A program made the position numbers and the translations under genes. Shown piece after piece: positions 1,521 through 55,530 of a stretch of DNA of 64,000 nucleotides. Where the stretch lies: assembly GCF_006345805.1 (NCBI RefSeq), contig NC_043003.1, forward strand, positions 64,976,001 to 65,040,000, in the 5' to 3' direction. The notes beneath the pieces were generated by a model. It saw only the letters and a list, made by a program, of their open reading frames with translations. It did not search any database and was not told the DNA's origin. Numbering within the stretch: the first letter of the stretch is position 1; every line of letters begins with the position of its first letter. The DNA is from Octopus sinensis. Its lineage: Eukaryota.

Positions 1521-3329
1521 TCACACACATACACACATATACACATATATACAAAGGCATATGCAAAGACATGCATGCCTATACACACATGTATGCATAT
1601 ATATATATATACATCAACATACACGTTAATGTATGTGTGTGTAAGTGCGCGCATGTGTGACTGTGTGTGCGCGCGGGTGTGATTGTGCGTGTGCGCGCGT
1701 GTGTTGCATGTGTGGATATGTTAGCGGTATATCAGATAACAATTTTTATAAGGTATACGTGTTTTGATAAGTGTGCAAGCAAAGCAAATATGCAGAAAAC
1801 TGAATGTTAAGCCTATAAAGATAACACATTTCATTATTAATTACGAGAGCTTGTTACCTCAACAGCTTTATTTAGTTGATATCCATATTTAAATTTATGT
1901 ATATTAAGTGACAAAACCGATAGGCGTAATGCTTTTACATTATTTAGCTTCTTGCCTGTAGAATTGTGGATTAAATTCTGATTCGGATGAAAACAATGAC
2001 AAGCGTTGTTTTCCTCAAATTTTAGCATGAACTATCGAAGAGGGAAGCGCTACGTAAGCGAGAAAAATTGTTAGAAGCAACAGTCAAATCTCCCTTAAAT
2101 CACGCTCTAGTTTCTAAATGAGCGACCCTGGGGGATTTCTACCTGTTTACCCGTTCCACAGCATGCAGCAGCTAAAATATCTCTCAAAGCATACTTTATT
2201 GCTTGAAGCCAATGAGAAACTGTCTACGTGATCGTTTCCTCTACTAGAAAGAACGGCTAAATATCCTTCAAATTATACTCTTTCGTCTTAAAAAGAAAGA
2301 TATATACAAATTAGATAATGTAGAAATTATTGCGCCGAAAATGTGATTGTCACGGCTGGATGATATTGATAATAGATCTTCACTTTGAGAGTTGAAGTTG
2401 GTACTAACATGCAACAGTTAATAAATAATGCAAAAGTGGAAACACGTTTCTTTGGGAGTGTCCTGACTAGTTTCATCCCTATTCGGAGAGTCAACAGTCA
2501 ACAAATTACCCTTATTTTTTATCTACAGATAAAGCATTCATCTCCACGTTACCTAAGTTTATCGAAGAGTAAGCCTCTTGTTGGTACACACCGGCACTAA
2601 TGTAATCGTTGTTGTTGCTGTCAAAAGACAAAGAATCGGAACATATACCACGAGGATACTTCTCAGACTTTCTGACATTTCCGCTAATTAAGACCCCGCT
2701 CTGGATTGGTATTTTTTTTAACGACTCTCGATACGATGAAAAGCGAAGTTGACCTCGATAGAATTCTGATTCAGAGCGCAGCTACCCAGAGTATATAGCG
2801 CATTCTGTATGATTTTAAGGAATCGGCATGCATTACAAATTTGGTATCGCTACAAAATGAAATCATGTGAATCCAAATGCAATCAATTCGTCAAAGAATT
2901 GTCTTGACTGTGCAAAGGCATGTCTATGCTTAAGAGAATGTATTTTGTTTCATTTGCCTGTTTGAAGGAAGGAGACCCAACAAGAAAACACTATACCCAC
3001 CCATGACCAGCAGTCATGTAAAACGCAGAAATTGTTTCAGTCTCTTGGTTTCATTACCATAAAAAATCTCAACTGGCAAAAGTACACGTTTAGTAAAGCA
3101 AGGCTCGCATCTCTCAAATTAGTCTTACTTTTCGGACCGAAAAGAACTTCATTCCCCAATAATTACTGACACACTATAAAGTTCAGTGGAGGAACACAGT
3201 GGAAAGCACTCTCACGCCACGGACGGTGCTGCTACTGCTGCTGCTGCTGCTGTATACACAGACATCCTAAACCGCATTTAGAAAAGGGCAATCAGACTGA
3301 CTGGTATGTAGTCACTTACAGATATGATC

Positions 3330-3600
3330 CGCTTCTAGAATGACTGCTCTTCCTTGGAGTTGGTTTAGTTCATGCCACCTCCTCTAAGGCATCTCCCCGT
3401 TCCGATCGTCTCTCTCTATCATCGTATGTTCCCTCACCCCCCATTCTCAAACACTGCACTAATCACTCCACACAGTCCATCCTTCTCGGAATAGCAGCTG
3501 ACTAGAATTCCCTCCCTCCTCATGACTTACAGTCTCACCCATCTAGGAGAGCCCGCAGAAGCCATGGAAACTGCTTCTTCATCGAAACCCAGTATTTGAA
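3330..3600 (-). mobile_element. Highly decayed RTE-like LINE 3' coding fragment
   Basis: Minus frames give VLRMGGEG and RNGEMP*RRWHEL, resembling the HVxRM...RGRPxxRW tail of RTE ORFs; multiple stops. Confidence 0.3.
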
Positions 3601-3764
3601 GCAAAATGTCAGCACGATGTTTTAATTGTGCTGGAAAGAATAGATTTTCTGTGGTCCGTTTCTGTTTACTGATTATGGAGTATTTTAAGAAAGGCATGAA
3701 TTTCGTAAATCCTACTTTTACTTCTCTTTTAAAAACGAGGTTCGGTTTCTTTGAGAAAATATTG

Positions 3765-3950
3765 GTTTCAAATTTTGGCACAAGGACAGCAATTTCGGAA
3801 AAGGGAGAAATCGATTACATCAAATCCAGTGCTCAACTGGTATTTATGATATCGACCCCGAAAGAATACAAGGAATTTGAAATCAGAACGCGAAGACGAA
3901 CGAAATGCCGCTAAATATTTTGCTCGGCGTGCTAACGATTCTGACAGTTC
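3765..3950 (-). mobile_element. SINE family A, diverged copy
   Basis: caactggtatttatgatatcgacccc...aatttgaaatcagaacg...gcgtgctaacgattctg is the reverse complement of the family A consensus. Confidence 0.7.
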
Positions 3951-4829
3951 TGTGGGAAAATATTAAATTCTGAGGGAAAATATTAAATTATCATGTATAT
4001 TGGAGTTTCAAATCAATTAAAATTACGTTGGGAAAAGTAGGCCGTCTTTTATAATGCCAGAAAAAAGAAACAGAACAGACAAACAAAAAACAAAACTAAG
4101 ATAATCATAGTAGGAACACCTTTGATCATAGATGATCTGGGGGCTTAAACGGCAATAACAACAATGACGATAGCAACAGCAACAGCAGCAACAACGTCAA
4201 CATCAACGGCATTAGCAGCTGTAATACCAAGGACAAAAATGATCGACATGGGGATACTGGAGAAGATTAAATTAACTTTAGTATTAGCCTGGATATTCGT
4301 AGTCAAATACTGATGCAATATCAGAAATCAATACGGCGCAGACGGACAATAACAAAAGATATTTAAAATACAAGTCGGCTTTGATCAAGCGAAACTATAA
4401 TTAAAACATCACAGCCAGGACCATAACATCTTATTTGCAGACAACCTATCCAAGATTACATAATCCCGTCCTCATTTAGGATTAAGATGGTGATCTGAGG
4501 TTTGAGTGCACATTCACTGTTACTATTGAAGTTTTCTATTATCACCGACGTGCAGTCTGAGGGGACTTTGGTTGTTGTTCTTTGTCCCGAGCAACATAGT
4601 GCTTCGTTTTTTGGTTTTTATTTTCATTTTGCATACATACGGTTTTAAAACTTAAATGATATTAATTATTGTTGGACGTGAAAAAAATGCCCTCAACAGC
4701 GCGCGGGTATGGGTGTGTGATAAAAAACGAAAAACTGTCGCTTCGCTAGTATATGGGCCCAAGATCTCTCGCGCAAAGTAAGCAATATCTGGCATGTCTT
4801 TGGATTGGCCAATACATTGTCGTGTTAAA

Positions 4830-5325
4830 GGCGGCGAGCTGGCAGAAACATTAACACGCCGGGCGAAATGCTTAGCGGCATTTCGTCTGCCGTTACGTTC
4901 TGAGTTCAAATTCCGCCGAGGTCGACTTTGCCTTTCATCCTTTCGGAGTCGATAAACTAAGTACCACTTGAGTACTGGAGTCGATCTAATCGAGAGGACC
5001 CCTCCCCACAATTTCGAGCCTTGTGCCTAGAGTAGAAAAGAATATTTCTAAGGTGGCGAGATGGCAGAAACATTAACACGCCTGGCGAAATGCTCAGCGG
5101 TATTTCGTCTGCTGTTACGTTCTGAATTCAAATTCCGCCGAGGTCGATTTGCCTTTCATCCTTTCGGGGTCGATTAAATAAGTACCAGTTACGCACTGGA
5201 GTCGATATAATCGACTTAATCCGTTTGTCTGTCCTTGTTTGTCCCCCCTGTGTTTAGCCCCTTGTGGGTAGTAAAGAAATAGGTATTTCGTCTGTCGTTA
5301 CGTTCTGAGTTGAAATTCCGCCGTT
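4830..5325 (+). mobile_element. Tandem SINE family A copies (Nin/Deu-like domain)
   Basis: Heads at ~4830 and ~5052 with B-box GAGTTCAAATTCC, followed by gcctttcatcctttcggggtcgataaa...agtacc, which resembles the Nin/Deu SINE domain. Confidence 0.85.
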
Positions 5326-5670
5326 AAACTTTCCAAGCGTTAAACTTTCTCATTCTCCAAGCGTTAAACTAATACATATGTTTAGTGTTTGCACACCCGT
5401 CTTCGTCTTCTTTTTTTTTTGTAAATTCTCACTACATACATACATACATACATACATACATACATACATACATACATACAAACATACATACATACATACC
5501 CTGTTGTTGATGTTGAAATTCCAATGAAAGAGCCTTGAATCTAGGTTAGAAACCGGCTTTTTCTCTAAATAAAACTGAATGATGACATACATAACAACAA
5601 ATATGAGCATGCCTATATATGCGACTATATGCATGAAAAGACACACAAAACAAAACATACAAATGTGCAC

Positions 5671-5709
<39 letters not shown>

Positions 5710-5718
<9 letters not shown>

Positions 5719-6063
5719 AGAAATATCCTATTGTTAATGTTGAAATTCCAATGAAGGAACCTTGCATCTAGGTTAGAAACCGGCTACCTGCACATATACA
5801 TTCATACATACGTACATACGTAAGAGTGTGTGTGCATGTTTATGTGTGTGAGCGTGGGCTTAACATTTCCACAACTTCATGACGTTTGTTGGTGTCTTTA
5901 CGTCTCCGTAAATTAACGGTTTGGCAAAAGAGACCGATAGAATAAGTACCAGAGTTAAAAAATAGTAATTCGGTCGATTTGTTCGACTAAAATAAGTATG
6001 CATACATACATACATACATACATACATACATACATACATACGTACATGAATATATACATATAT

Positions 6064-6115
<52 letters not shown>

Positions 6116-6479
6116 TATATATATTATATATATATATATACACACATACAGAATATCCTATTGTTAATGTTGAAATTCCAATGAAGGAACCTTGCATCTA
6201 GGTTAAAAACCGGCTACCTGCACATATACATTCATACATACGTACATACGTAAGAGTGTGTGTGCATGTTTATGTGTGTGAGCGTGGGCTTAACATTTCC
6301 ACAACTTCATGACGTTTGTTGGTGTCTTTACGTCTCCGTAAATTAACGATAGAATAAGTACCAGAGTTAAAAAATAGTAATTCGGTCGATTTGTTCGACT
6401 AAAATAAGTATGCATACATACATACATACATACATACATACATACATACGTACATGAATATATATATATATACACACAC

Positions 6480-6480
<1 letters not shown>
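5710..6480 (+). repeat. Direct tandem duplication, ~430-bp unit
   Basis: 5710-~6060 is repeated at 6141-~6480 almost identically; copy 2 lacks 18 bp. Confidence 0.9.
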
Positions 6481-6528
<48 letters not shown>

Positions 6529-6689: not shown

Positions 6690-7172
6690 TGACCTGTGGT
6701 AGGGACAAAAGGCACCACTCCTTCTTCTACTAGCCCTACAAACACGCTTTGTTTACATCCACAACCACACACATATACACACACACACGCACACACACAC
6801 ACACACACACGTCTCATCATTGCACACATACACACACACACCTCTGCGCACGCACATATCCACACTTACACACACATTCCTCCTCTACCAGTCTCCTGTC
6901 TTTGACAATACTACTCTCCTCTGTTTGAAAATATCTTTCTTCACCCTTTTCCTTCCGGTCTTTCAAAATGTGACCTCGTGTGTACCATTGGCGATTTTTT
7001 TCCCTCTGTCTTCCCTTCTCTGGATCCTTCCTTCTCCTATGTTTCCGACGAAGAGCTCCGCTCGAAACGCTAAACCCTCCTTCTTTCCTTCTTTCCTGAG
7101 CGTCCAGTAATACTATATTTGTTCCACGTCCTCGCGTTGTTGTGTCTTTTTGTACTTTCTAGTTTGAATTAA
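6690..7172 (+). mobile_element. Penelope-like non-autonomous element with hammerhead-like motif
   Basis: Pyrimidine-rich body ending gtttccgacgaagagctccgctcgaaacgctaaac...ctgagcg..taatac then (TA)n; same layout at 39300-39500. Confidence 0.55.
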
Positions 7173-34626: not shown

Positions 34627-34668
<42 letters not shown>

Positions 34669-34669
<1 letters not shown>

Positions 34670-35069
34670 TCTCTTTTACTCTTTTACTTGTTTCAGTCAT
34701 TTGACTGCGGCCATGCTGAGCACCGCCTCTAATCGAGCAACTCGACCCGGGACTTATTCTTTTTTGTAAGCCCAGTACTTATTCTGCCGGTCTCTTTTGC
34801 CGACCGCTAATTAACGGGGACATAAACACACCAGCATCGGTTGTCAAGCAATGCTAGGGGGACAAACACCGACACACAAACACACACGCATATATATATA
34901 TACATATATACGACGGGCTTCTTTCAGTTTCGTCTACCAAATCCACTCTCAAGGGTTTGGTCGGGCCGAGGCTATAGTAGAAGACACTTGCCCAAGGTGC
35001 CACGGATGTGGGACTGAACCCAGAACCATGTGGTTGGTAAACAAGCTACTTACCACACAGCCACTCCTG
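34669..35069 (-). mobile_element. SINE family B, full length
   Basis: Reverse complement has a tRNA-like head, CORE-like gcaccttgggcaagtgtctt and a (gtaaaaga)n tail. Confidence 0.88.
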
Positions 35070-35107
35070 TGTATATATATATATACACATTCATACATAT
35101 ATATAAA

Positions 35108-35662
35108 GGTTTAAGGACGGCATAAGGACTACTATGATGTCACTTGGAATGGATTCAGAGGACATAGAAACCCTTGCCTCGGATCGAGCTGGATGGTGAA
35201 CAAAAGTGTGGAGTTAGTGAAAGCGTTTGAAGAGGCCGGGATAAGCCATGCAAGACTCAAAAGAAATTTAAGGAAGAATGTTACGATCAAGAAGGCGAAT
35301 CACAATGACCTTTTTGTATGCCCAATTTGTGACAGACCATGCCTTTCTTTTGCTGGGCTCAAATTTCATTTGCGAACCCATGGAAAGTGAAACCACCACC
35401 AAGTATTCTGCCTATATGTCTGTGCACTTCTTTGAATGCAGTGTATGCCAGAATATCTGGAAATTTAACGGTGGCCTCAAAATGCATTTCAAGATCCACA
35501 AAGATCTGAACTTATCTGCAGCTCTTATTGGTCCAAATCGGATGTGCAATTTATGTGAGTGACTTTTCAGAACGTTGGTTTAAAAAGCCGTATCATATGC
35601 CATGATGGTTGCAAGGTATAGGTACGGGAGGTGGTGAAACTCTGTATAAGGAGTAGACAATC
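35108..35662 (+). mobile_element. RTE-clade LINE 3' fragment with three C2H2-like zinc fingers
   Basis: RFKDGIRTTM..ETLASDRAGW; CPICDRPCLSFAGLKFHLRTH; CSVCQNIWKFNGGLKMHFKIH; CNLCE..LKSRIICH; stops and frameshifts. Confidence 0.75.
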
Positions 35663-35756
35663 TTCTATTTACGGAGATGTACTTGGATAGCAAGTGACTT
35701 GATCTGAGATCGTGTGCTGGAACGAAAACAATTGCAGCGTGGAAGCAGCACGAAGC

Positions 35757-35807
35757 TTTGTCAGTGAACAGGTCGCGGTCTCAAAGCGACGAAAATATTT
35801 TGACAAA
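35757..35807 (+). ncRNA. Minimal type I hammerhead-like motif, G3:C8 core variant
   Basis: tttgtca-GTGAACA-g-gtcgc/gcgac-GAAA-atattt-tgacaaa: perfect 7-bp stem I, 5-bp stem II, palindromic AATATT stem III. Confidence 0.6.
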
Positions 35808-35959
35808 TTAAATTTAAATGTTGAAGTGAATCTAACGGTTTTGTGTGTTTCTTAAATGGCTTATAAACACCTTACACGCTGCAATTGTTATCTTTTATGT
35901 TTCAGTCATTTGACTGCGGTCAGCTGGAACGCCGTCTTTAGTCGAAGAAATCGCATGTG

Positions 35960-40150: not shown

Positions 40151-40216
40151 ATACACACACACACACACATATATATAGACATATAATAATAATAATAATA
40201 ATAATTACATCTATAC

Positions 40217-40248
<32 letters not shown>

Positions 40249-40559
40249 CACACACACAACACACACAACCACACACAACATATATATATATATATATTAT
40301 ACACACACACACACACACACACACACCACATATATATATATATATATATATGCATATGTGGGAACAGGACGACATGAAACGTGTACAACAAAAGAGTACG
40401 AATCACGAGTCCATGGAGCATGAACACGTCTTTCGAACAACGGAAGACACAAATGGAACACAAATCAAACAACATAAAGAACGACTCTTCATCAGTTGCT
40501 GGCTGCTTTTCTAGTCTCGTATTTCAAGTCAAGCATTTAATATATATATATTTTCAATA

Positions 40560-43488: not shown

Positions 43489-44383
43489 TGTATGTATGTA
43501 TATGTGTGTGTGTATATATTTGTGTGTGTACATATATATTTGTGTGTTGGTATATATATATGTATATATACATGTATATATTGTATACATACATAGGTAC
43601 ACCACAGACACATATACTTACATATATATCTATGTATGTACATTTGTGGATGTGTGTAGCGAAAGACCGAAAGAGGAAAATGAGAGAGAGAAAGAGAGTG
43701 TGAATGAGATCATGTGTGTGTGTGAGAGTGAGAGAGAGAGAGAGAGAGAGAGTGTGTGTGGAGGAGAGAAAGCTTGTCACTGCGGGATAAAGATAAAGAC
43801 AAAAATGAGGAATGATCAAAGAGCGTGATAAATAGAGAATAGATAATAACTAGATAGGGACGCAGAGATAGTAAGGAGAAAAGGAAAAAAGAAAAGGAGA
43901 GGGCCGATATGTTGGGAATGCAAAACAGAATGTATATACAAATAACAAAAATTTTGCTGAAGATGAGAGGGTTAGTGTAGATGAGGGCTGGGCAGAAAAG
44001 ACAGAGGTTTGTAGTCAGTCGAAGTGGACAATTTGGTATGATAACCCCCAAGAGGATTGAAGTAGGGCAGAGAATACATTAACTTCACATTTCCAAACGA
44101 AGGCAGGTTGAAAAAGAAAAATGGAATAGTATGTCAATCGTGGCAACGAAGAAATCCTTCATGTAAAACGGTTGACGAGAAAAGAAATTAGGTTAACATT
44201 GTGGAAGTGTAGAGGGATTGGCAGAGGTTTCGCTTTGTCATTTGCAAGTAGATAGGAAAATAGGGTTTTGTTTTAAATATAGATAACGCCTATGAAAGCG
44301 CAATAACGCATTGGTTACAGATTTCGTGCATTCGAATTCCTGGTTCACACAATTCTAATTCCTTTACTGTTTTATTTATTTAT

Positions 44384-44790
44384 TTTTGTTTAGCCCCAGG
44401 ATTCATAGGGCTGGTTACCTGGTTTCCATGTACATGACCGAGATCACATTCCTGCTGAACGAGTCGTTGCTGCGTTGCAGACTTTAAGAAGAGCAATGTT
44501 TGAGAGAAAGACATTATTTTTTTTGTTTAGCCCTAAGACTCATAAGTCCAGTTACCTGGTTTCCACATAAATGGTTGAGATCACATTTCTCCTGGACGAG
44601 ACGCCGGTGCATAGTAGAGTTTAAGATCAGCCTTTTTTGAGAGGAGGACATTATTTTTGTTTAGCCCTAGGACTCATTAGGCCGGTTACCTGTTTTCCAT
44701 ATAAATGGTCAAGAGCATATTCCCACCTCAACGAGACGCTGCTCCGTTGCAGAGTTTAAAACCAGCAATTTTTGAGTGGAAGACACTATT
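44384..44790. repeat. Three diverged ~135-bp tandem units
   Basis: ttttgtttagccc..ggttacctggtttcca..gacattattt recurs at ~44384, ~44521 and ~44655. Confidence 0.85.
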
Positions 44791-46719
44791 TGATTGCATC
44801 GGCTCAAGAATTTGACTGAAACTTTATTTAGAAGAAAAAAAGAAAATCCCATTAATCACAAGTCTGCATCGACTTAGGGGTAAATAACAAACATAACTCT
44901 ACATAATGTCGACATTTCTCGCTTTCAATAATGAATATTTTTATGATTTTTACATGAAATGTAAGGGTATTCTACCAAATAGAAGCCTTATCTGTTTATT
45001 TATCTATATATTTTCCTTCCATTGATATGAGCTTACAAATTTCACTGATGAGGCCTGCTGAAGTTTAGTTTATATCTTGCTGATCTGTTACTCATTCTTT
45101 TAGAAACGTTTGATTTTCTATTTGAGGAGCAAACTTCTTGATTGCTTTCGCTGCTAAATGCGGCGTGATACACCACTCCATGTCGTCACAAAGGAAAAGC
45201 CACTGTGAGTTCATTTGATATTTGTTTATTAGATATGGCAGCCAAATCATATCATATAGCATCAGAAAGAAAGGTAAACACATTGAATGCTATCACTAAA
45301 ATATATTAAGTCAGGATACTCAAAACGAAAAATACGGGCAATCAGGGAGTAGTTGAACGGCAAACTAACAATGATACACAGTTACAACTAAACCAGTGAC
45401 AGAATTTATCAGTGGTAATTGATACTGTGAGAAGTAATAGCCAAATCTCCCTCAAACCGTAGCCGACTGTCTTAAATCTGTAACGAAACGTTTTCTTTAC
45501 AAGTACAGTAAAAGAAGAAAGGCTGAAAGCTGGCAGAATCGCTGACATGTCGGAGAAAATGCTCAGAGTTATTTCATCCAGCTCTCTACGTTCTTTTCTG
45601 AGTTCAATTCCCACTGAGACCAATTTTAGCTTTCATTCTTTCGAGGTCGATAAAGTAGAGTACCAGTCAAGTACAGGAGTCGATGTAATCGAATTGCTCT
45701 TTTTCATTAAAAAGTTACTGGCGTTGAAACCTGAAGTAAACCGGCGTCTTACTGATGGAAACTGGTTTGCGATTGATGGAAACCGGATAACTGGCCGGTT
45801 AACGAGTCCCAGGCCTTGAAGAAAAAGGATTATATGAGACAATACAATCCGATGTGTTTCTTCTGTTTTTATGAATATTTCATATGAAATAGATATGCAG
45901 GCGAACCGAACACATAGAGGCTATTACCAGAAATACGATTAAACGTCTTGAGCAGGTTTTGAACTCAGATCAGATTAGAAGACAGTTGAATGAACTTATA
46001 CTTCCGACTGCTTTCCCCCTCTACATCTAATCTAAACAAAATACACATTACGAAATAATTTTGGCTCGTCAAAACAAAAAAAAAAAAAAATCTTGGTTAT
46101 ATAAATGGACGGCATTAAGATTTTCATTGATTCTATTTTACATTTGAATAAATGTAACAAAAACATAAATAAGAAGAAATGCAAAAAAACAAATACAAAA
46201 TCGAAATAAAAACAAAACAAGTTTTCAGTAAATCCTCCATAATATAAATACAAATAAAAATAATAAAAAACTACAGAATTTGCATCTAAGTTTATTTGCA
46301 AGAGATAGTATTTTAGCATCAAAACTAATTTCCCTGGAGAAAAGCTGGGATATTTCATTTGTCAGAACAAACGTAATGGAACAGGAAGAACAGAAACTAG
46401 TAAGGATTTTCCTTGACACTGGGTCGATCAGTATATGTCAGAACTAAGTCGCTGCTGCTTTCTATTTCGAGATGATTACAGTAACCAATATGAGATGTTG
46501 TTTCATTATATTACTGTAGATTATAATAAGAGTAGTAGATTCGCCTCTATTTTTGAACCAAAATTTACAGAAACTCAAGTGCAGTCACATGTAATGCTGC
46601 TTCTTTTCTCTGTTCTGAAGTTCTAGTGATGCATTAAGAGGAAATGTTTTCAATTACTACCATTGTTTACTTGTATTCTTTCTGCTAATATCACTGCCTC
46701 GTATTATTTAGTCGTGTTG

Positions 46720-54756: not shown

Positions 54757-55530
54757 GGCAGCGAGCTGGCAGAAACGTTAGCACGCCGAGCGAAATACTT
54801 AGCAGTATTTCAGCCGCTACGTTCTGAGTTCAAATTCCGCCGAGGTCGACTTTGCCTTTCATACGTTCGGGGTCGATTAAATAAGTATCAGTTACGCAGT
54901 GGGGTCGATATAATCGACTTAATCCGTGTGTCTGTCCTTGTTTGTCCTCTCTGTGTTTAGCCCCTTGTGGGTAGTAAAGAAATAGGTATTTCGTCTGCCG
55001 CTACGTTCCGAGTTCAAATTTCGCCGAGCTTGACTTTGCCTTTCATCCTTTCGGGGTTGATTAAATAAGTACCAGTTACTCACTGGGGTCGATGTAATCG
55101 ACTTGATCCGTTTGCCTGTCCTTGTTTATCCTCTCTGTGTTTAGCCCCTTGTGGGTAGTAAAGAAATAGGTATTTCGTCTGCCGTTAAGTTCTGAGTTCA
55201 AATTCCGCCGACTTTGCCTTTCATCCTTTCGGGGTCGATAAATTAAGTAACAGTTACACATTGGAGTCGATGTAATCGACCTAATCCATTTGTCTGTCCT
55301 TGTTTGTCCCCTCTATGTTTAGCCTTTTGTGAGCAATAACGAAATAGGAAACGTTAGGCCGTCGGACAAAATGCTTAGAGGAATTTCGTAGTCATTACGT
55401 TCTGAGGTCAAATTCCGCTGAGGTCAACTTTGCTTTTCATATTTTCGAGATCGATAATATAAGTACCAGTTGATCTCTGGGATCGACTCGATCCATCCCT
55501 CAAAATTGTTGACCTTGAGCCAAAATTTTA
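54757..55530 (+). mobile_element. Tandem array of SINE family A bodies
   Basis: One head followed by repeated ~190-bp bodies, each joined through gtaaagaaataggtatttcgtctgccg. Confidence 0.88.

What the first reader, a model, noticed from the sequence alone, without database searches (positions are those of the whole stretch)
35757..35807. Minimal hammerhead-like RNA with a reciprocal G3:C8 core swap
Seen: complete type I topology with a perfect stem I (tttgtca/tgacaaa), stem II (gtcgc/gcgac), GAAA and palindromic stem III (AATATT), but the core reads GUGAACA instead of CUGANGA. Established: positions 3 and 8 form a Watson-Crick pair in active hammerheads, so C3G plus G8C is the compensatory change, and minimal hammerheads with palindromic stem III are typical of Penelope-like elements and act as dimers. 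Inference: a repeat family carries a covariant ribozyme that CUGANGA-based searches would miss. The predicted cleavage triplet (UUU) is weak. The motif lies between short inverted repeats (aacaattgcagcgtg ~35727-35741 / cacgctgcaattgtt ~35875-35889).
Basis: partly seen in the sequence, partly recalled or inferred. Interest (0 to 1): 0.8.

Follow-up and report, generated by a model that had tools for sequence, protein, structure and literature searches.

The report
Swapped-core hammerhead in Penelope-like retrotransposon
This 51-base motif is the small hammerhead-type RNA carried at the end of a Penelope-like jumping gene present in thousands of copies in an octopus genome; two paired core letters are swapped throughout the family, and it likely still cuts itself slowly, which would make it a natural variant that standard ribozyme searches miss.

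Summary
The motif is real. It sits in a short insertion (35669-35889) from the end repeat (pLTR) of a Penelope-like retrotransposon. I found the parent: RT plus GIY-YIG ORF with the motif at both ends, 4.36 kb apart. The family has at least 6,441 copies; 93 of the first 100 read G3/C8, and none genome-wide reads C3/G8. Three related families in the same genome carry U3-A8, U3·G8 and C3-G8, with compensatory changes at five stem pairs. So the 3:8 pair covaries, and this is a Penelope-type minimal hammerhead with a natural G3-C8 core. Cleavage is untested. Against strong activity: 91 of 100 sampled copies span the predicted cut, many start at a capped-RNA-like 5' end, and one young sister family lacks A9. 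The 'short inverted repeats' are the overlap of two inverted copies, not element termini. I found no natural G3-C8 in print, but could not read the largest survey (Lünse 2017). Unchecked scan notes report G3-C8 in protist elements and a phage. Verdict: new variant of a known kind; about 60% likely to cut.

The parts
35757..35807 (+). Type I minimal hammerhead motif with G3-C8 core, extra G after A9, palindromic stem III and U17
   Evidence: Sequence; descriptor scan; family tallies
35757..35763 (+). Stem I, 5' arm (2.7-2.1)
   Evidence: pair probability 0.7-0.85 for six of seven pairs in the 35742-35860 fold, 0.4-0.5 in the 35742-35891 fold
35764..35771 (+). Core G3 U4 G5 A6 A7 C8 A9 plus one extra G before G10.1
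   Evidence: G3/C8 in 62 of 67 parsed copies, extra G in 66 of 67
35772..35790 (+). Stem II (5 bp, G10.1-C11.1) with 9-nt loop; the loop differs between subfamilies
35791..35800 (+). G12 A13 A14, six-base palindrome A15.1 to U16.1, and U17; predicted cut between 35800 and 35801
   Evidence: cut site from hammerhead numbering, not tested
35801..35807 (+). Stem I, 3' arm (1.1-1.7)
35745..35889 (+). Tail-less copy of the pLTR end; begins 4 nt downstream of the inferred transcription start and ends at the usual pLTR end
   Evidence: Alignment of 32 copies; 90-91% identity to both pLTRs of full-length L133
35669..35745 (-). Inverted second copy: last 19 bp of the pLTR plus the ~58-bp Penelope 'tail' (ORF codons ~12-30)
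   Evidence: 93.5% identity to L133; in L104, L131 and L133 the tail runs in frame into the ORF
35856..35889 (+). Start of the element's ORF (ATG plus 10 codons), 55 nt downstream of the predicted cut
   Evidence: Same ATG opens frames of 597-608 aa in full-length copies L133 and L134; position
35727..35741 (-).
35875..35889 (+). Right 'inverted repeat': normal pLTR end
35660..35668 (+). Left target-site-duplication-like 9-mer (8 of 9 identical to 35890-35898)
35890..35898 (+). Right target-site-duplication-like 9-mer

Best explanation
The motif is the minimal type I hammerhead in the end repeat (pLTR) of an endonuclease-bearing Penelope-like retrotransposon, with the 3:8 core pair swapped to G-C throughout the family, and it likely cuts slowly after U17 (35800), probably only when two copies pair through the AAUAUU palindrome. 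Shown: family membership, the parent ORF, two motifs 4.36 kb apart in full-length elements, family-wide G3/C8, and covariation across four related families. Inferred: transcription starts at a capped A about 16 nt upstream of stem I. Reverse transcription starts at the pLTR end or in the tail, inside the ORF start, and mostly runs to that cap on uncut RNA. This gives the thousands of ~150-215-bp copies; fold-back of the cDNA gives inverted pairs like this one. Further inferred: in a minority of long transcripts the two hammerheads pair, perhaps helped by the element's protein, and cut out a unit-length RNA that could be circularised and copied more than once round. That would rebuild the upstream promoter region seen in full-length copies.
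For: Parent: L133 has motif (2544-2690), ORF 2657-5868 with one frameshift, ~1 kb 3' UTR, second motif (6905-7050), then (TA)n; GIY-YIG PF01541 above cut-off in two EN pieces. Copy number 6,441 and 10,133 exact motif matches, reversed-pattern controls 0. Covariation: 3:8 is G-C 62 of 67 (F1, this family), U-A 18 of 21 (F2), U·G 17 and C-G 3 of 23 (F3), C-G 14 of 15 (F4). Compensatory swaps occur at 2.2:1.2, 2.3:1.3, 10.3:11.3, 10.4:11.4 and 15.2:16.2. U4, G5, A6, GAA, A15.1-U16.1, the extra G and U17 are kept although F1, F2 and F4 proteins are only 51-60% identical. Between F1 subfamilies, 22-28% of fourfold sites differ, but 0 of 42 core and stem columns change majority letter, against 5 of 9 in loop II; the common variant A1.3G (10 of 27 B copies) keeps a U·G pair. 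Dimer with 6-bp stem III: -25.4 kcal/mol, against -14.0 for two monomers closing stem III. Literature: the C3G/G8C double mutant partly restores cleavage in a Penelope-like hammerhead, which needs the element's protein, and uncut RNA is the main insertion template (PMC11167929). 5' ends: 47 of 100 copies start at -6..+7; G precedes the starting AG in 18 of 34 short copies against 1 of 43 copies with upstream parent sequence (Fisher p 1.9e-7). All 9 ORF-linked 5' repeats with an intact motif region carry 200+ bp upstream of the inferred start.
Against: No cleavage data. 91 of 100 sampled copies extend 5' of the predicted cut; only 2 start exactly at it, and both are explained by fold-back through stem I. 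The 48 nt between the motif and the ATG are also conserved between subfamilies (2 changes), so constraint is not specific to the ribozyme. The young family F4 has C at position 9 in 15 of 15 parsed copies and a mismatch at 2.4:1.4; F3 mostly has a U·G wobble; F2 has only a 3-bp stem I. An extra G is rare in published PLE hammerheads (1 of 56, consensus H), and I recall, without a source read, that G is the worst insertion there. The dimer is no more stable than two monomers with stem III open (-25.4 against -24.8), and the cofold minimum (-30.6) is another, inactive pairing. Only 32 of 76 sampled copies keep a fully intact core and stems. The 9 ORF-linked repeats include probable duplicates, and circular RNA has no direct support.
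Confidence: 0.6

Rival explanations
1. A hammerhead descendant that no longer cuts usefully. The fold is kept as a protein-binding or RT-guiding structure, and the letters partly as an internal promoter (start site plus a downstream element overlapping the core and stem II).
For: Uncut templates dominate. F4 lacks A9 yet is young and abundant (93-99% aa identity among 150 scored of 3,475 candidates). The whole start-to-ATG region is conserved. Catalytic mutants did not affect insertion in vitro (PMC11167929). Naiad elements thrive without canonical hammerheads (PMC8557442).
Against: The 3:8 pair is a tertiary contact of the active fold, and it stays Watson-Crick or wobble in all four families through a double transversion. 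A DNA promoter would not explain compensatory pairs or a freely varying loop II.
Confidence: 0.25
2. It cuts, but for translation control rather than excision. Cutting removes the cap and the first ~60 nt, leaving an RNA that begins 55 nt before the ORF's AUG, which is then translated without a cap or destroyed.
For: Geometry: start site, cut and AUG lie at about +1, +60 and +115. Type I hammerheads in viral 5' UTRs support cap-independent translation (PMC13725137, passages). Such a role would leave no trace in insertions.
Against: No expression or translation data. A short stem III suggests a second copy is needed, which points to long two-motif transcripts.
Confidence: 0.1
3. An independent non-autonomous element (retrozyme or SINE) with its own life cycle through small circular RNA.
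For: Short copies vastly outnumber full-length ones (10,133 motif matches against 57 first-look candidates for a mid-ORF probe).
Against: Short copies are colinear pieces of the parent and end inside its ORF. They are monomers or inverted pairs with fixed ends, not head-to-tail arrays or circular permutations.
Confidence: 0.03
4. A DNA transposon derivative (MITE or Helentron-type) whose terminal or subterminal inverted repeats flank a chance hammerhead look-alike.
For: 15-bp inverted repeats and a small hairpin near one end.
Against: The repeat overlap varies in length from copy to copy and is absent in monomer copies. The sequence is part of an RT-GIY-YIG element. The descriptor gives 0 hits in 20 Mb of null sequence.
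Confidence: 0.02

Closest known systems
Minimal type I hammerheads (min-HHR) in pLTRs of metazoan Penelope-like elements (Cervera and de la Peña 2014, PMC4209133)
   Same: Type I topology in the pLTR, at both ends of full elements; extra nucleotide between 9 and 10.1; G10.1-C11.1; palindromic 15.2-16.2 and loop 3; U17 common; mostly single dispersed motifs from truncated copies; opposite-strand pairs 100-700 bp apart.
   Different: Core pair is G3-C8; none of the 56 representatives in Fig. S3 has G3 (they show C3-G8, two U3-A8, one U3·G8). The extra nucleotide is G (1 of 56 there). Stem I is longer (7 bp).
U3-A8 natural core variant (Perreault et al. 2011, PMC3088659; Schistosoma Cercyon elements, PMC4209133)
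   Same: Compensatory replacement of the C3-G8 tertiary pair in nature; sister family F2 in this genome has exactly this variant (5,385 matches, 89 of first 100 U3-A8).
   Different: U3-A8 needs two transitions; G3-C8 needs two transversions and is described in the papers I read only as an engineered rescue.
Poseidon element of Anolis carolinensis (PAc; Frangieh et al. 2024, PMC11167929)
   Same: Hammerhead near the ORF start; two 3' ends separated by a tail inside the ORF; AT-rich targets; uncut RNA as main template; engineered C3G/G8C partly active.
   Different: PAc is canonical C3-G8 and its ORF starts inside the ribozyme. Here the ORF starts 55 nt after the cut, the tail is ~58 bp rather than 30-40 or less, and the protein has a CX3CxxC linker.
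Nematis and Neptune clades of endonuclease-bearing Penelope-like elements (Craig et al. 2021, PMC8557442)
   Same: RT followed by a CX2-5CxxC linker and C-terminal GIY-YIG; (TA)n target bias; tandem and inverted pLTRs with a tail at one end.
   Different: Linker-to-EN spacing (7 aa) resembles Nematis more than Neptune in their Fig. S2. The RT3-RT4 distance is 131 aa against about 60 in their Neptune rows. No tree with named references was built, so the clade is unresolved.

Membership tests
Penelope-like element (EN+) | Single ORF with RT and C-terminal GIY-YIG endonuclease | tested here: met
   L135 holds a 1,042-codon open frame; GIY-YIG PF01541 passes cut-off in two EN pieces; RT motifs seen; 90 homologues, some with RVT_1. 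Pfam does not hit the RT itself.
Penelope-like element (EN+) | Pseudo-LTRs in partial tandem or inverted arrangement | tested here: met
   L133, L134 tandem; L136, L137 and many short copies inverted.
Penelope-like element (EN+) | Optional tail at one end only, corresponding to the ORF start | tested here: met
   the tail is ~58 bp, longer than the 30-40 bp described.
Penelope-like element (EN+) | Phylogenetic placement among named PLE clades | not tested
   Tree holds only unnamed homologues; clade judged by motifs.
Penelope-like element (EN+) | Spliceosomal intron in the pLTR (present in some PLEs) | tested here: inconclusive
   A conserved branch-point and acceptor-like stretch precedes the start site in F1, but 0 of 70 short-copy junctions match a spliced upstream exon, and F2 lacks the signal.
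Hammerhead ribozyme, minimal type I | Three-way layout with stems I, II and III, G10.1-C11.1 and A15.1-U16.1 | tested here: met
Hammerhead ribozyme, minimal type I | Invariant core U4 G5 A6, A9, G12 A13 A14 and H17 | tested here: met
   All present in the window copy; 69-76 of 76 copies per position.
Hammerhead ribozyme, minimal type I | Consensus letters C3 and G8 | tested here: not met
   G3/C8 in the family; 0 C3/G8 matches genome-wide in this context.
Hammerhead ribozyme, minimal type I | Watson-Crick pair between positions 3 and 8 (the structural requirement behind C3-G8) | tested here: met
   G-C here; U-A, C-G and U·G in related families.
Hammerhead ribozyme, minimal type I | Palindromic short stem III allowing a double hammerhead | tested here: met
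   AAUAUU; computed dimer is feasible but not the energy minimum.
Hammerhead ribozyme, minimal type I | Site-specific self-cleavage after position 17 | not testable with these tools
   Only assembled contigs were available; insertion ends show no peak at the cut.
Non-LTR retrozyme | Non-coding head-to-tail tandem repeats, each with a hammerhead | tested here: not met
   Copies are pieces of a coding element, monomeric or inverted.
MITE / Helentron-type DNA element | Fixed terminal or subterminal inverted repeats shared by all copies | tested here: not met
   Repeat length varies and is absent in monomers.

The most novel reading that the evidence does not exclude
One octopus clade of Penelope-like elements has run a natural mutagenesis of the hammerhead core: G3-C8, U3-A8, U3·G8 and C3-G8 with A9C, each with extra G and U17. 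All are tuned to cut slowly. G3-C8 is a working natural ribozyme in more than 6,000 genomic copies. Cutting is not needed to make ordinary insertions, which come from capped, uncut RNA, but is needed for the rare dimer-cut, circularised RNA that rebuilds a promoter-bearing full-length element.
Probability: 0.3. Interest if true: 0.75.

Novelty: new variant of a known kind. Interest (0 to 1): 0.5.

Why it matters
G3-C8 has been a laboratory rescue mutant. A natural family of thousands, with sister families showing the other pairings, is comparative proof of the 3:8 tertiary pair and shows that CUGANGA- and Rfam-based surveys undercount hammerheads. The role of hammerheads in Penelope-like elements is an open question. 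This family gives a genomic record that insertions come from capped, uncut RNA, matching the one in vitro study, and supplies four matched natural cores whose cleavage rates can be compared directly. It does not point to a new mechanism class or a host function at this locus.

Tried and rejected
Rfam at E up to 10 gave only microsatellite-driven miRNA hits and no hammerhead. Helentron or MITE reading: dropped. Intron-spliced origin of the fixed 5' end: a splice-acceptor-like stretch exists, but no spliced junction in 70 copies apart from microsatellite matches. Peak of 5' ends at the cut: not found. The 7 C3-G8 hits in the F2 lineage are about what two independent transitions from U3-A8 would give, so I do not count them as a family. 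No ORF could be linked to F3 by tblastn within 1.5 kb; it is placed by its homologous ORF start and inverted copies only. Outgroup loci: metagenome scan gave 2 contigs ending before any pLTR; prokaryote and viral collections gave none. Sequencing runs: no RNA holder listed on record; contigs cannot show RNA ends, and none were called. A loose genome-wide G3/C8 pattern was swamped by this family and by overlapping matches. PDB search found nothing. Target-site duplications of 8+ bp were found in only 5 of 23 tail-bearing rows, some duplicates or inverted pairs. Lünse et al. 2017 is not held; file 1 of the PMC4209133 supplement and part 3 of file 2 were not read.

Full report
OBSERVATION. Stem I is 35757-35763 with 35801-35807. 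Stem II is 35772-35776 with 35786-35790; GAA is 35791-35793; the palindrome AATATT is 35794-35799; U17 is 35800. A relaxed descriptor finds this one hit on both strands of the window and none in 20 Mb of Markov sequence. The fold is modest (z -1.74). Rfam does not report a hammerhead.

THE FAMILY. The genome is 2.72 Gb; a database protein named from Octopus vulgaris matches a sister family here at up to 99%, so I call it an octopus genome. A 19-base pattern open at positions 3, 7 and 8 matches 6,441 times with a control of 0; 93 of the 100 listed read G3/C8 and the other 7 are single changes. The C3/G8 form matches 0 times. A downstream motif matches 10,133 times. In contigs of four runs under four coded organism labels, no variant reaches 3% at 35764 or 35769. 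Copies are monomers of ~215 bp ending in a ~58-bp tail, or inverted pairs in which one member has the tail and the other stops at the repeat end, often beside (TA)n. The window insertion (35669-35889) is such a pair, flanked by a 9-mer repeated with one mismatch.

THE PARENT. Walking upstream from longer copies led to a GIY-YIG domain and an RT. Walking back along the ORF led to copies where the tail continues in frame. L133 shows the whole element: upstream repeat with the motif, ORF 2657-5868 with one frameshift, ~1 kb of microsatellite-rich 3' UTR, a second motif 4,361 bp after the first, then (TA)n. The ORF's ATG corresponds to window 35856. This is the arrangement described for endonuclease-bearing Penelope-like elements (PMC8557442, passages). 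The CX3CxxC linker places it with Neptune or Nematis; its spacing is closer to Nematis (supplement part 54). I did not resolve the clade.

IS THE SWAP UNDER SELECTION? Within one young family, shared letters only show descent. Two comparisons go further. First, subfamilies A (41 copies) and B (27) differ at 22-28% of fourfold-degenerate sites (37 of 165, 43 of 161, 31 of 112; within-A control 12 of 315). They differ in majority letter at 0 of 42 core and stem columns, 5 of 9 loop II columns, and 2 of 48 columns between motif and ATG (76 of 98 sampled copies had the core region, 8 unassigned). The motif is constrained, but so is the rest of the leader. Second, three related families carry the same layout. 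Parsed by fixed geometry from 30-locus samples (88 loci for F1), pair 3:8 is G-C in 62 of 67 (F1), U-A in 18 of 21 (F2), U·G in 17 and C-G in 3 of 23 (F3, old and degraded) and C-G in 14 of 15 (F4) (copies that did not parse were left out). Five stem pairs change on both sides between families: 2.2:1.2, 2.3:1.3, 10.3:11.3, 10.4:11.4 and 15.2:16.2. The proteins of F1, F2 and F4 are 51-60% identical and form one clade (100/99), with F1 sister to F2+F4. These are four lineages, not independent samples, and F3 has no linked ORF. Against strict catalytic constraint, F4 has C at position 9 in 15 of 15 copies and F2 has a 3-bp stem I.

WHAT THE INSERTIONS RECORD. Among the first 100 copies picked by a motif downstream of the ribozyme, 13 extend upstream (some calls there are microsatellite artefacts), 47 start at -6..+7, 18 at +10..+15, 13 at +20..+51 and 9 at +56 or later. 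The predicted cut is at +56 or +58. So 91 span it, and the 2 that start on it share the 7-base stem I arm with their inverted partner, which fold-back explains. Members of inverted pairs are not independent. Of 70 junctions without upstream parent sequence, 34 start with AG, and 18 of these have G in front, where the parent has G in 1 of 43. Loose ends in three large contig sets show the same G, and 4 of 8 short F2 copies starting at their own AG do too (my reading). Two or more of the 18 can be read as inverted-copy sequence. I infer a capped transcription start; that reverse transcriptases copy a cap as an extra G is recalled knowledge. A splice-acceptor-like stretch precedes this site in F1, as in Drosophila Penelope (PMC2377424, passages; PMC4209133), but no spliced junction was found.

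MECHANISM. Shown: the anatomy above. Inferred: RNA starts ~16 nt before stem I; RT starts at the repeat end or tail, as shown in vitro for the anole element (PMC11167929, parts 1-2 of 4), and copies uncut RNA to the cap. The motif cannot close stem III well alone. Two copies can form a 6-bp stem III at -25.4 kcal/mol, against -14.0 for two closed monomers and -24.8 for two open ones; the cofold minimum is a different pairing at -30.6. Slow or protein-assisted cutting fits the low rates reported for such motifs (PMC4209133, parts 1-2 of 4). With G3, a C at 17 could trap the core; engineered G3-C8 was reported less active with C17 than with G17 (PMC3884650, passage), so U17 avoids that pairing. 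All 9 ORF-linked 5' repeats with an intact motif region carry 200+ bp upstream of the inferred start (some are probable duplicates), which a start-to-tail RNA cannot encode. Cutting and circularisation is one proposed solution (PMC4209133); read-through transcription is another. I put measurable cleavage at about 60%.

COMPARISON AND NOVELTY. It works like, and by position and layout is, a Penelope-type minimal hammerhead; it fails only the literal C3/G8 consensus. U3-A8 is the reported natural covariation (PMC3088659, section 8; PMC4209133). G3-C8 appears as an engineered rescue (PMC11167929; PMC8495972, passage). None of 56 representatives in PMC4209133 Fig. S3 has G3. Searches listed no paper that names a natural G3-C8 hammerhead or this family; most listed papers I saw only as listings. 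An octopus repeat annotation lists Penelope-like families and does not mention ribozymes (PMC13282606, passages). Lünse et al. 2017 (about 150,000 variants, figure recalled) could not be read and may contain it; I saw only a review's passages on it (PMC6765202). I also read part 1 of 5 of bioRxiv 10.64898/2026.07.22.740005, passages of PMC13725137 and one reference line of PMC2632901. Scan notes, unchecked, report G3-C8 in four protist Penelope-like loci and a phage; none matched this sequence.

VERDICT. Observation confirmed; interpretation supported with corrections. New variant of a known kind. Interest 0.5: the swap itself is predictable from structure, but the copy number, the four-family allelic series and the record of capped, uncut templates make the unsettled role of these ribozymes directly testable.

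Noticed in passing
L339-L368 (family F4), e.g. L342 2548-2595: A young, abundant sister Penelope-like family has canonical C3-G8 but C in place of the conserved A9 in 15 of 15 parsed copies.
   Followed up: partly
P0001 residues 433-564; homologues P0002-P0005, P0013, P0030, P0050, P0082: The RT has about 70 extra residues between motifs 3 and 4 (distance 131-138 aa against about 60 in published Neptune rows), although the endonuclease is C-terminal. PMC8557442 ties such an insertion to N-terminal-EN elements.
   Followed up: partly
L133 2518-2544 and L134; just upstream of the inferred start: A branch-point and acceptor-like stretch is conserved between subfamilies while the rest of the 3' UTR is ~75% identical; a conserved donor-like GT lies several hundred bases upstream. 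No spliced copy was seen.
   Followed up: partly
L277-L306 and L149-L178 (family F2): 5,385 copies of a U3-A8 minimal hammerhead in a sister element, with short copies starting about 12 nt before position 3.
   Followed up: partly
window 34650-35070 and 35891-35953: A very common SINE-like repeat that recurs in most fetched loci; the insertion abuts a fragment of it.
   Followed up: no
window 35100-35620 (+): Broken 3' end of a LINE-like ORF with two zinc-finger-like C..C/H..H motifs, also matching L010.
   Followed up: no
window 40170-40357 (-): 73% match over 191 bp to the 3' UTR region of family F4; may be a fragment or low-complexity sequence.
   Followed up: no
window 5672-6525, 44376-44791, 54813-55348: Tandem repeats with long units (periods 430, 137 and 184).
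   Followed up: no
L099 1-1782, L100 4815-6748, L091 4827-6129 (contig C20): Unrelated Penelope-like ORFs whose RT motif 4 resembles the Hydra-clade rows in PMC8557442 lie next to or inside copies of this family; contig C20 holds several near-duplicate loci.
   Followed up: no
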